Origin: Escherichia coli
GTDB taxonomy: Bacteria > Pseudomonadota > Gammaproteobacteria > Enterobacterales > Enterobacteriaceae
Assembly: GCF_009931435.1 (NCBI RefSeq)
Contig: NZ_CP043414.1
DNA length: 64,000 nucleotides
Strand: one strand, 5' to 3'
The position numbers are program-made. Below, one piece after another: positions 29,001 through 32,000 of the stretch. Each line of letters starts with the position of its first letter. Positions within the stretch are counted from its first letter, which is position 1.

Positions 29001-32000
29001 AGACAACGTGCTTTGTGCGGGCTATCAGGCGTTTTATTCTTACTCCGCGCCGCATATGCGGGTGATGCGTGATCTGATAAAGCAGCATCGTTCTCCCATG
29101 GAGCTGATGACGATGCTGCGGTGACGTGAGCTTAAACGGGCTGCCCCTGATGCGACATCCGCGTCGCCAGCGGTAGCCAGCACAGCACGATCAACAATCC
29201 CATTAAGGTCATCAACAACCCCAGGCTGCCCTGACCGGTTTGCGGCAACATCGCAGAGAGCGACGCAAGCACGCCGGAACCAATGTTTTGCAGACCGCCG
29301 ACCAGCGCGCCAGCCGTGCCCGCCAGGAAGGGGAACGGTTCCATTGCGCCGCTGGTCGCCAGCGGAAACAGCATCCCGGCACCGAAAAAGAACAGCGCGG
29401 CAGGAACAAGCAATGTCCAGACATTCATCACGCCAAACCAGTCGGGGATCCACATCAGCAAGCCAGCCAGCAGGCAGCAGATAACCGACTGCCACATCAA
29501 CGTTGAGAAGCGTTTATTAGGACGCCCGGCAAACCATGCTCCAAAAAATGCCGCCGGAATCGGCAGAATAAACAAAATACTGACCGTCATACTGCTCAGC
29601 CCTAATACCGCACCCATCAGCACGCCGGAGCAGGCTTCAAAGGCGGCAATCCCGGCCAGACCGCCAATCAGCATCAGCAAATAACAGTTAAAACCGCTGT
29701 TACCGAAAAGTGTTTTATAACTGGTAAGCAGGCGCGTGCGCGGTGCATCTACCGGACGCGTTTCCGGCATCCAGCGCGCCATACTGAAGGTCACACCGGC
29801 ACAAAGTACCAACAGGAAGAGATAACAGGCGCGCCAGTTCCACATCGTATCCAGCAGACCGCCGATTAACGGTGCGAGCAACGGACTGACGAGAATCCCC
29901 ATATTTAACAGGCTGTTAGCATGACGCAACTGTGTCCGTTCATATAAATCACGCGGCAATGTACGCGCCATCACGCCGCCTACGCCGGTGCCCATCCCCT
30001 GCATCGCGCTGGCGGCAATCAACACCGTCAAACTGGAGGTCGTGACCGCGACCAGCGTTGCCAGCATAAAAATGGACATTCCGACGAGGATCACCGGTCG
30101 GCGACCCACACGGTCGGATATCGGGCCATAAAACAGTTGCGAGACACCGTAAGTCAGCAGATAAGCGCCCATTACGCTTTGCACCGCCCCTTCACGAACG
30201 TTGAGATCGCGCGCCATATCGGCAATAGCTGGAATATAAATGGTTTGCGCCATCTGACCGACGGCCACGAGTAATACCAACATCAATAACAAATTGACGT
30301 TTCTATGCCTTTTCATTATCACGGATGCTTTTATAAAAATAATTAGAATAAGTCACTACGCATTCCCATAAATGCGGGAGAGGAATCTATCACATTGATG
30401 AATGTTAGCCAGATATACGCCAGGAATGGGGAATTGTTTAGCGGCAGAATATGTAAACAAAAGCGGCAATAAATGTTGCCGGGAGGGATGGTAGGTCGGA
30501 TAAGATGCGTCAGCATCGCATCCGACACCAACCCACACGTTAAATATAAAAGGGGAGCGGTTACCCGCTCCCCTTTGGTGCGACTTGAATCTGAATTACT
30601 TCAGGTATTTCAGAACAGCATCAAGCAGTTGCAGTGCTGCAACAATGAGTTTGAGGATAAGAATGGCGATATCCACCAGGCTCATACGCGTCTCCTGTGG
30701 TTCAGGAGCACTGCCAGCTGACGTACCTTTCCGCTGCCTGTTGCCAACTGTTGTGCACGCGGTATCTCAAGGAGAAACGTTGTGCTTGTTGACATAACAC
30801 AGTGTGCTCACGCGGGGTTAAGGCGCTGACGGCACCACCCGTTTCAGCCAGGACTTAGTGCGCCGGGTAACGATGCGGCCCCCGCATAACACATTGCGTA
30901 CAGTGATATTATAGAAGTTTACTGTATAAATAAACAGTAATATTTAGACAAAACGTAAACTGTGATCGATACTCCACTATGTACTAAATACGTCAAAATT
31001 CGTGCCGAAATTGCGCGTTCTGCGCGGAACACGTATACTTTCTGTGTTGACATAATACAGTGTGCTTTGCGGTTACCAGCCGCGGGCGGCTGACGAAACC
31101 TCGCTCCGGCGGGGTTTTTTGTTACCTGCAGTACAGTACAAAACGTGATCAATCCCTCAATTTTCCCTTGCTGAAAAATTTTCCATTGTCTCTCCTGTAA
31201 ACCTGTGCTTGTATAAATATTGTTAAACACAAAACCAACAAGGTCCCCAATGACTACTTCCATGCTCAACGCAAAACTACTACCAACTGCGCCATCCGCC
31301 GCAGTGGTCGTCGTGCGTGTGGTGGTGGTCGTCGGCAATGCGCCGTAGGGACTGGAACAACACACGATTCCAAAACCCCGCCGGCGCAAACCGGGCGGGG
31401 TTTTTCGTTTAAGCACCTCCCGGAAAGTCGGCCCAGAAGAAAAGGACTGGAGCATGGCAAGTTCGGGCACATCATCGACGCGTAAGCGCTTTACCGGCGC
31501 AGAATTTATCGTTCATTTCCTGGAACAGCAGGGCATTAAGATTGTGACGGGCATTCCGGGCGGTTCTATCCTGCCTGTTTACGACGCCTTAAGCCAAAGC
31601 ACGCAAATCCGCCATATTCTGGCTCGCCATGAACAGGGCGCGGGGTTTATCGCTCAGGGAATGGCGCGCACTGACGGCAAACCGGCGGTCTGTATGGCCT
31701 GTAGCGGACCAGGTGCGACTAACCTGGTGACCGCCATTGCCGATGCGCGACTGGACTCCATCCCGCTGATTTGCATCACTGGTCAGGTTCCTGCCTCAAT
31801 GATCGGCACTGATGCCTTCCAGGAAGTGGACACCTACGGCATCTCTATCCCCATCACCAAACACAACTATCTGGTCAGACATATCGAAGAACTCCCGCAG
31901 GTCATGAGCGATGCTTTCCGTATTGCGCAATCAGGCCGCCCTGGCCCGGTGTGGATAGACATTCCTAAGGATGTGCAAACGGCAGTTTTTGAGATTGAAG

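What the first reader, a model, noticed from the sequence alone, without database searches (positions are those of the whole stretch)
30596..31122. tisB/istR-1 type I toxin-antitoxin locus with a direct repeat that creates antisense complementarity
A 29-aa TisB toxin ORF is encoded on the minus strand (MSLVDIAILILKLIVAALQLLDAVLKYLK), with a CTGT-N8-ACAG LexA box at 30922-30937. The motif gttgacataa(c/t)acagtgtgct appears twice in direct orientation, at about 30789 and about 31047. One copy lies in the tisAB leader and one at the 5' end of the divergent IstR-1 unit, which explains how a trans-encoded sRNA pairs with the toxin mRNA. The ORF track misses tisB because it is under 60 aa.
Basis: partly seen in the sequence, partly recalled or inferred. 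Interest (0 to 1): 0.5.

Follow-up and report, generated by a model that had tools for sequence, protein, structure and literature searches.

The report
Known tisB/istR-1 toxin-antitoxin locus
This is the textbook SOS-induced tisB toxin gene and its IstR-1 antisense RNA antitoxin, intact and almost identical to E. coli K-12, and the 22-base direct repeat is the published pairing site, so the finding is correct but ordinary.

Summary

- **Toxin:** window 30596-30685 (-) encodes a 29-aa TisB that passes both NCBIfam TisB models.
- **Antitoxin:** 30991-31120 (+) is a full-length Rfam istR match (147.5 bits; gathering score 45).
- **LexA box:** TACTGTATAAATAAACAGTA at 30920-30939, unique in the window.
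- **Repeat:** a 22-nt direct repeat (21/22 identical) at 30787-30808 and 31045-31066, with 0 matches expected by chance.

tisAB is read from the - strand and IstR from the + strand. The two copies therefore give an uninterrupted 22-bp RNA helix, and the single C/T difference becomes a G·U wobble.

The locus is 97.9% identical to K-12 in the same emrD-ysdE-tisB-istR-ivbL-ilvB context. Both repeat copies are identical to K-12's. The target lies about 100 nt upstream of the tisB start codon, and the published +106 RNase III cleavage site falls inside the duplex, as in the published standby-site model.

The TisB N2S difference from K-12 is the dominant E. coli allele. The pairing is retained in three Citrobacter species, whereas the tisA reading frame is not. 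Interest is low.

The parts
30549..30576 (-). tisB intrinsic terminator (12-bp G+C-rich stem, 4-nt loop, T-rich tail)
   Evidence: Terminator scan; inverted repeat I1/I2 (arms 30549-30560 and 30565-30576, 100% complementary).
30596..30685 (-). tisB coding sequence, 29 aa plus stop; TisB N2S relative to K-12
   Evidence: ORF list; NCBIfam TisB equivalogs above cut-off; maps onto K-12 b4618; N2S is the dominant E. coli allele (85%) per PMC11264685.
30691..30696 (-). tisB Shine-Dalgarno sequence AGGAGA
   Evidence: Located; same hexamer listed as 100% conserved in PMC11264685 Table 1.
30682..30795 (-). tisA ORF (37 aa), overlapping tisB by ATGA; probably not a real gene
   Evidence: ORF list; no NCBIfam match; no experimental evidence of translation per PMC11264685; frame or start codon not conserved in 4 Citrobacter loci.
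30787..30808 (-). IstR-1 target, the single-stranded ribosome standby segment of tisAB mRNA (repeat copy 1); about nt +94 to +115
   Evidence: About 102 nt upstream of the tisB AUG, and position +106 falls inside it, matching PMC6690012. Nearly invariant in Citrobacter.
30880..30899 (-). 5' segment of the primary (+1) tisAB mRNA predicted to pair with nt 85-105 and so mask part of the target; contains a third partial repeat copy, CATAACACATTG, at 30885-30896
   Evidence: Repeat family D2; pair table of the MFE fold; invariant columns. The published model says the +1 mRNA is inert until 41 nt are removed (PMC6690012).
30908..30913 (-). tisAB promoter -10 hexamer TATAAT (transcription start inferred near 30901)
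   Evidence: Located; hexamer as listed in PMC11264685 Table 1. The start site is inferred from hexamer spacing, not measured.
30920..30939 (.). LexA box TACTGTATAAATAAACAGTA, overlapping the -35 and spacer region of the tisAB promoter
   Evidence: unique in the window, 0 expected; identical to K-12; conserved with 1 change in Citrobacter.
30945..30973 (+). IstR-2 promoter: -35 TAGACA (K-12 has TGGACA), 17-nt spacer, -10 GATACT
   Evidence: Promoter scan; hexamers per PMC11264685 Table 1.
30981..31120 (+). IstR-2 (140 nt, SOS-induced long form)
   Evidence: K-12 annotation transferred through the alignment; Rfam RF01400 covers 30991-31120.
31011..31039 (+). IstR-1 promoter inside IstR-2: -35 TTGCGC (31011-31016), -10 TATACT (31034-31039)
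   Evidence: hexamers per PMC11264685 Table 1.
31046..31120 (+). IstR-1 antitoxin sRNA (75 nt; RefSeq annotates 73 nt starting at 31048), with a central hairpin and a terminator hairpin
   Evidence: fold. Two A-to-G changes from K-12 at 31084 and 31089 turn U-A pairs of the central stem into U-G pairs.
31045..31066 (+). Antisense segment at the IstR-1 5' end (repeat copy 2)
31094..31120 (+). IstR intrinsic terminator (stem plus U-run)
   Evidence: Rfam structure line; terminator scan.

Best explanation

What the sequence shows:
- tisAB is read from the - strand, from a TATAAT promoter overlapped by a near-consensus LexA box.
- IstR-1 is read from the + strand, from its own promoter (TTGCGC / TATACT).
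- The first 21 nt of IstR-1 are a direct DNA repeat of a segment of the tisAB leader. Because the two units are divergent, the RNAs are complementary over 21-22 contiguous base pairs, one of them a G·U.

How it works, by identity with the K-12 locus and its literature:
- LexA represses tisAB until DNA damage occurs.
- The primary +1 mRNA is inert, because its 5' end masks the standby and target region.
- Removal of 41 nt gives the translatable +42 mRNA, in which 30S subunits with protein S1 load on the single-stranded standby segment about 100 nt upstream and then slide to the structured tisB ribosome-binding site.
- IstR-1 pairs with that segment, blocks standby binding and triggers RNase III cleavage, leaving the inert +106 mRNA.
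- When SOS induction makes tisAB mRNA outnumber IstR-1, TisB is made. It inserts in the inner membrane, collapses the proton-motive force and promotes persister formation.
For: - Rfam istR full-length match, 147.5 bits, E = 1.5e-31.
- TisB passes two NCBIfam equivalog models above their curated cut-offs.
- 97.9% identity and complete colinearity with the annotated K-12 locus, with both repeat copies, the LexA box, the RBS and three of four promoters unchanged.
- The repeat is unique in the window and none is expected by chance.
- The helix is 22 contiguous pairs, against a maximum of 16 in 1000 shuffles, at -35.1 kcal/mol.
- Geometry matches the published landmarks: target at about +94 to +115, tisB AUG at about +217, and +106 inside the duplex (against PMC6690012).
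- The predicted +1 fold pairs nt 3-22 with nt 85-105.
- The pairing is kept in three Citrobacter species where IstR scores drop to 116-126 bits: 21 Watson-Crick pairs in C. werkmanii and C. youngae, and 21 of 22 in Citrobacter sp. R56.
- Mechanism as published: PMC4147584, PMC6690012, PMC11264685.
Against: Nothing contradicts this. The limits are these:
- No expression or function was measured for this strain. The transcription start and the +42/+106 positions are transferred from K-12 by spacing, not determined here.
- Thermodynamic prediction gives only a modest rise in target accessibility from the +1 to the +42 mRNA (mean unpaired probability 0.26 to 0.39).
- Across species the pairing region is conserved rather than co-varying, so there is no compensatory-change proof from comparison. 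One species even has an A·C mismatch.
- The IstR-2 -35 hexamer differs from the majority E. coli form (TAGACA vs TGGACA). The effect is unknown.
Confidence: 0.96

Rival explanations
1. IstR-1 works as Sok does in hok/mok/sok. The target copy overlaps the tisA start codon and tisA overlaps tisB by ATGA, so the sRNA would block tisA translation, and tisB would be silenced through loss of translational coupling rather than loss of ribosome standby.
For: The target 30787-30808 covers the tisA ATG (30795-30793), and the tisA stop overlaps the tisB start (ATGA at 30682-30685). The tisA ORF is kept in more than 99% of E. coli that carry the locus (PMC11264685).
Against: The literature reports no evidence that tisA is translated, and it demonstrates tRNA-independent 30S/S1 binding at the site (PMC11264685; PMC6690012). 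In Citrobacter the pairing region is kept but tisA is not. In C. werkmanii, C. youngae and sp. FP75 the frame shifts after 4 codons, following 34-nt and 2-nt deletions. In sp. R56 the start codon is ACG. tisA matches no protein family.
Confidence: 0.03
2. The 22-nt repeat is a chance or purely historical duplication, and regulation of tisB depends only on LexA.
For: Short repeats are common in intergenic DNA. Other 12-16-nt repeat families in the same 1.2 kb look like chance matches.
Against: Zero matches are expected in 64 kb, even with 3 mismatches allowed. The helix exceeds every one of 1000 shuffles. Both copies are conserved in Citrobacter. Published genetics and biochemistry show IstR-1-dependent repression and RNase III cleavage (PMC4147584, PMC6690012).
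Confidence: 0.01

Closest known systems
tisB/istR-1 of Escherichia coli K-12 MG1655 (b4618 / b4616)
   Same: Same genes, order, strands and neighbours (emrD, ysdE, ivbL, ilvB). 97.9% nucleotide identity over 1,082 aligned columns. Identical repeat copies, LexA box, RBS, tisAB -10 and IstR-1 promoter.
   Different: 21 substitutions over that aligned stretch:
- TisB N2S, which is the majority E. coli allele.
- One change in tisA (30747).
- IstR-2 -35 is TAGACA instead of TGGACA.
- Two A-to-G changes in the IstR-1 central stem that keep the pairing (U-A to U-G).

The surrounding 24 kb is only about 94-96% identical to most E. coli, so the host is a divergent lineage.
tisB/istR loci of Citrobacter (C. 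werkmanii, C. youngae, Citrobacter sp. R56, sp. FP75)
   Same: TisB differs by 0-2 residues. There is a LexA box, a full-length Rfam istR match in three of them, and the same 21-22-nt pairing segment in the three loci that hold both copies.
   Different: - The IstR copy has C where Escherichia has T. In C. werkmanii and C. youngae this makes the duplex fully Watson-Crick.
- Repeat spacing is 248-249 nt rather than 258.
- The tisA frame is disrupted.
- The IstR hairpins carry several substitutions.
Other divergently transcribed type I systems with 5'-UTR targets (shoB/ohsC, zor/orz, dinQ/agrB)
   Same: The same architecture: a small hydrophobic toxin, a long structured 5' UTR, and a divergent sRNA that is complementary to the UTR through a short direct DNA repeat, not overlapping the RBS (PMC4147584).
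   Different: The toxin and sRNA sequences are unrelated. Only dinQ shares LexA control. These are analogues, not the family this locus belongs to.
hok/mok/sok
   Same: A type I toxin with an upstream overlapping ORF, and an antisense RNA that triggers RNase III cleavage.
   Different: Sok is cis-encoded and blocks translation of the mok leader. Here the sRNA is encoded separately and blocks a standby site, and the upstream ORF (tisA) is not conserved outside Escherichia.

Membership tests
TisB toxin (NCBIfam NF011340 / TIGR04459) | Full-length match to the curated equivalog HMM above its cut-off | tested here: met
   69.9 bits (cut-off 53) and 61.5 bits (cut-off 38), residues 1-29 of 29.
TisB toxin (NCBIfam NF011340 / TIGR04459) | Intact 29-aa hydrophobic ORF with start, stop and Shine-Dalgarno sequence | tested here: met
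   ATG...TAA at 30685-30596 with no internal stop; AGGAGA at 30691-30696.
IstR sRNA (Rfam RF01400) | Covariance-model score above the gathering threshold, full length, on the strand opposite tisB | tested here: met
   147.5 bits against 45, model positions 1-130 of 130, + strand, 30991-31120.
tisB/istR-1 type I toxin-antitoxin system | About 21 nt of contiguous complementarity between the IstR-1 5' end and the tisAB 5' UTR, about 100 nt upstream of the tisB RBS | tested here: met
   21-22 contiguous pairs including one G·U. Target at about +94 to +115 and tisB AUG at about +217.
tisB/istR-1 type I toxin-antitoxin system | LexA box at the tisAB promoter (SOS control) | tested here: met
   TACTGTATAAATAAACAGTA at 30920-30939, identical to K-12, 6 nt upstream of the -10 TATAAT on the - strand. 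LexA binding itself was not tested.
tisB/istR-1 type I toxin-antitoxin system | Constitutive IstR-1 promoter nested within the LexA-dependent IstR-2 unit | tested here: met
   TTGCGC-17 nt-TATACT at 31011-31039, and TAGACA-17 nt-GATACT at 30945-30973. Promoter activity was not tested.
tisB/istR-1 type I toxin-antitoxin system | Conserved chromosomal position between emrD/ysdE and ivbL-ilvBN | tested here: met
tisB/istR-1 type I toxin-antitoxin system | TisB toxicity, IstR-1-dependent repression, RNase III cleavage to +106, and S1-dependent standby | not testable with these tools
   Taken from experiments on K-12 (PMC4147584, PMC6690012). The N2S variant was shown to be toxic in PMC11264685.

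The most novel reading that the evidence does not exclude
The repeat has a conserved third, partial member at the extreme 5' end of the primary tisAB transcript (CATAACACATTG, 30885-30896, mRNA nt 6-17). The repeat core ACACAGTGT is an odd palindrome, so this segment can do two things. It can lock the standby/target region in cis, which is the predicted +1 fold. It can also offer IstR-1 a second, weaker binding site (11 of 12 positions complementary; predicted duplex -17.3 kcal/mol). One sequence motif used three times would then encode the lock, the key and the target. IstR-1 might also act on, or be titrated by, the unprocessed +1 mRNA. Published work describes the +1 mRNA as not binding IstR-1, so this is unlikely to add much.
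Probability: 0.07. Interest if true: 0.3.

Novelty: already known. Interest (0 to 1): 0.06.

Why it matters
It matters only as annotation. The window carries a complete and presumably functional tisB/istR-1 module, a locus relevant to SOS-induced persister formation and to the ribosome-standby model. Automatic ORF tracks with a 60-aa floor, and RefSeq annotation of most genomes (which lists tisB but not istR), do not display it. The comparison adds small supporting points for existing views. The RNA pairing segment, not the tisA reading frame, is what is conserved between Escherichia and Citrobacter. The whole module is present or absent as one ~690-bp block in E. coli.

Tried and rejected
(1) Whole-molecule RNAduplex of IstR-1 against tisAB mRNA. 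It gave -78.0 kcal/mol against -56.5 +/- 4.4 for shuffles, but the best shuffle reached -74.8 and the sense-strand control gave -56.8. This tool ignores intramolecular structure and inflates long G+C-rich duplexes, so I replaced it with a longest-contiguous-helix test.

Only 5 relevant enterobacterial loci came through (4 Citrobacter, 1 E. coli). A Lelliottia hit has no istR or tisB and is chance. I therefore cannot describe the taxonomic range (for example Salmonella), and I found no true covariation, only conservation.

(3) Accessibility prediction for the +1, +42 and +106 mRNAs. The direction agrees with the published model but the effect is modest, so I do not count it as independent support.

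(4) Other Rfam hits near the locus, naRNA4 (26.9 bits, gathering 59.5) and Pseudomonas P6 (20.6 bits, gathering 50), are below threshold. They reflect a REP element and the ivbL attenuator hairpin, not sRNA genes.

(5) I considered whether the roughly 20% of complete E. coli genomes without a match was a new observation. It is published: 15% with no match and 3% interrupted (PMC11264685).

Full report
**Observation**

The 1.2 kb around the finding was read on both strands.

- ORF: the ORF list gives a 29-aa ATG ORF at 30596..30685 on the - strand, MSLVDIAILILKLIVAALQLLDAVLKYLK. A 37-aa ORF (tisA) lies upstream at 30682..30795 and overlaps it by ATGA.
- LexA box: the 20-mer TACTGTATAAATAAACAGTA sits at 30920-30939, with CTGT-N8-ACAG at exactly 30922-30937. 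It is the only match in the window even with three mismatches allowed, and 0 are expected. By my own knowledge of the consensus TACTG(TA)5CAGTA it matches 18 of 20 positions.
The repeat finder extends it to 22 nt (30787-30808 and 31045-31066, 21/22 identical, 258 nt apart).

**Identity of the parts**

- Rfam's istR model (RF01400) matches 30991-31120 on the + strand over its full length, at 147.5 bits against a gathering score of 45.
- The 29-aa peptide passes both NCBIfam TisB equivalog models above their curated cut-offs (69.9/53 and 61.5/38). tisA matches nothing.
- K-12 MG1655 annotates ilvN-ilvB-ivbL-istR(IstR-1 73 nt, IstR-2 140 nt)-tisB-ysdE-emrD. The window aligns to it colinearly at 97.9% identity.
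- Transferring the K-12 annotation places IstR-2 at 30981-31120, IstR-1 at 31048-31120, tisB at 30596-30685, ysdE at 30398-30472 and ivbL at 31250-31348.
- Both repeat copies, the LexA box and the RBS are identical to K-12.
- The published promoter hexamers (PMC11264685 Table 1) are found in the window:
  - tisAB -10 TATAAT at 30913-30908 (-)
  - IstR-1 TTGCGC at 31011-31016 and TATACT at 31034-31039
  - IstR-2 -10 GATACT at 30968-30973
  - IstR-2 -35 is TAGACA here, instead of the TGGACA found in 94.5% of E. coli loci

**The pairing**

tisAB is transcribed from the - strand and IstR from the + strand.

- Written out, the two 22-mers form 22 uninterrupted pairs. The single C/T difference in the DNA becomes a G·U wobble (IstR U, mRNA G).
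- The helix is worth -35.1 kcal/mol (-33.5 for the 21-mer). Its length of 22 compares with a mean of 10.3 and a maximum of 16 in 1000 shuffles of IstR-1.
- The literature figure is 21 nt of complementarity (PMC4147584). This fits an IstR-1 that starts at G31046, 7 nt after the TATACT hexamer. T31045 belongs only to IstR-2.

**Geometry and mechanism**

Taking the tisAB start at about 30901 (7 nt downstream of the TATAAT hexamer; inferred):

- the target is nt +94 to +115
- the tisA AUG is at +107
- the tisB SD is at about +206 to +211
- the tisB AUG is at +217

The target thus lies about 100 nt upstream of the tisB RBS, and position +106 falls inside the duplex.

This matches the published account. 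The +1 mRNA is inert. Removal of 41 nt gives the active +42 mRNA with a single-stranded standby site about 100 nt upstream of the RBS. IstR-1 pairs across that site, and RNase III cleavage yields the inert +106 mRNA. [quoted passage not shown]

In the predicted MFE fold of the +1 transcript, nt 3-22 pair with nt 85-105. That covers 12 nt of the target. The mean unpaired probability of the target rises only from 0.26 (+1) to 0.39 (+42). This is the right direction, but it is weak as independent evidence.

**Comparison with other genomes**

*Within E. coli*
- 4358 of 5426 complete genomes match the 601-nt locus. The published figures are 82% full match, 3% interrupted and 15% absent (PMC11264685).
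- In a tis/istR-negative genome (strain Z1323HEC0355), homology to the window stops at 30484 and resumes at about 31172, with about 150 nt of unrelated sequence between. The REP element, terminator, tisB, tisA, LexA box and IstR therefore come and go as one block of about 690 bp.
- TisB N2S, the only amino-acid difference from K-12, is the dominant natural allele (85%) and has been shown to be toxic (PMC11264685).

*Outside Escherichia*
- The one genome-collection scan was mostly wasted on chance 15-mer hits. It did recover four Citrobacter loci and one E. coli locus.
- Three Citrobacter loci have full-length istR matches at 116-126 bits.
- In C. werkmanii and C. youngae the IstR copy carries C instead of T, so the duplex is 21 Watson-Crick pairs.
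- In Citrobacter sp. R56 the target has one A-to-G change, giving an A·C mismatch.
- There is no compensatory covariation. The region is simply conserved.
- The tisA reading frame, by contrast, is not conserved. Deletions of 34 nt and 2 nt shift the frame after four codons in three Citrobacter loci, and R56 has ACG in place of the start codon. This argues that the RNA element is what selection preserves, not a TisA protein. It also counts against a mok-like coupling mechanism.

**Differences specific to this window**

- Two A-to-G substitutions in IstR-1 (31084, 31089) convert two U-A pairs of the central hairpin to U-G, so the structure is preserved.
- The IstR-2 -35 hexamer is the minority form.
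- The host lineage is unusual. Over 24 kb the window is 98.3-98.6% identical to three genomes labelled E. coli and at most 95.7% to all others. The tis/istR locus is 97.9% identical to K-12, so it is better conserved than its surroundings.

**Verdict**

It restates a locus and a mechanism that have been characterised in detail since 2004 (the original papers, by Vogel and colleagues and by Darfeuille and colleagues, are cited within PMC4147584; I did not read them directly). Novelty: already known. Interest: low.

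Noticed in passing
window 30885-30896 (within 30880-30899): There is a third, partial copy of the repeat core (CATAACACATTG, 11/12 to the target copy) at nt 6-17 of the primary tisAB transcript. It is invariant in Citrobacter. In the predicted +1 fold this 5' segment pairs with nt 85-105 and masks half of the IstR-1 target, which is possible because the core ACACAGTGT is an odd palindrome. It is also 11/12 complementary to IstR-1 nt 6-17.
   Followed up: partly
window 30485-31171, compared with L123 (NZ_CP148363.1): E. coli genomes that lack tis/istR (about 20% of complete genomes here; 15% with no match plus 3% interrupted in PMC11264685) have about 150 nt of unrelated DNA replacing this ~690-bp block. 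The block includes the REP element and both terminators. ysdE and the ivbL promoter region are intact on either side.
   Followed up: partly
window 20000-44000: The host is a divergent Escherichia lineage. It is 98.3-98.6% identical to three 'E. coli' genomes (R32_14_1F from goat, 2020CK-00188, 2013C-4282) and at most 95.7% to the other ~5400. This suggests a cryptic-clade or outlying phylogroup genome. The species was not resolved.
   Followed up: partly
L016:6570-6745, L097:4683-4858, L028:237-412, L118:4577-4787: The tisA ORF is not conserved in Citrobacter. In three species the frame shifts after 4 codons, following deletions of 34 nt and 2 nt. In sp. R56 the start codon is ACG and the frame runs into tisB. 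The overlapping IstR-1 target is nevertheless kept. This supports the view that tisA is not a real gene.
   Followed up: yes
window 30945-30950: The IstR-2 -35 hexamer is TAGACA here, against TGGACA in K-12 and in 94.5% of E. coli loci. Citrobacter sp. R56 also has TAGACA.
   Followed up: no
window 31084 and 31089: Two A-to-G substitutions relative to K-12 in the 3' arm of the IstR-1 central hairpin each convert a U-A pair to U-G. The Citrobacter sequences change this hairpin further.
   Followed up: partly
window 30398-30472 (+) and 30488-30530: The small protein gene ysdE (24 aa) is intact. A REP-type palindrome lies between it and the tisB terminator and gives a sub-threshold naRNA4 match (26.9 bits, gathering 59.5).
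   Followed up: no
window 31250-31348 (+) and 31372-31409: The ivbL leader peptide (MTTSMLNAKLLPTAPSAAVVVVRVVVVVGNAP) and its attenuator terminator lie upstream of ilvB. The 3' half of the attenuator (GGCGGGGTTTTTCGTT) is 15/16 identical to the IstR terminator (GGCGGGGTTTTTTGTT). This probably explains the stray short 'istR 3'-end' BLAST hits mentioned in PMC11264685.
   Followed up: no
window 511-591 (-), 6068-6110 (-), 16240-16312 (+): Other Rfam matches above gathering score: AsdA (antisense RNA of dnaA mRNA, 100.9 bits), ES036/CssrF sRNA (52.5 bits) and a ROSE_2 RNA thermometer (100.4 bits; probably the ibpA leader, from my own knowledge of K-12). These fit the dnaA-to-ilvB region of an Escherichia chromosome.
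   Followed up: no
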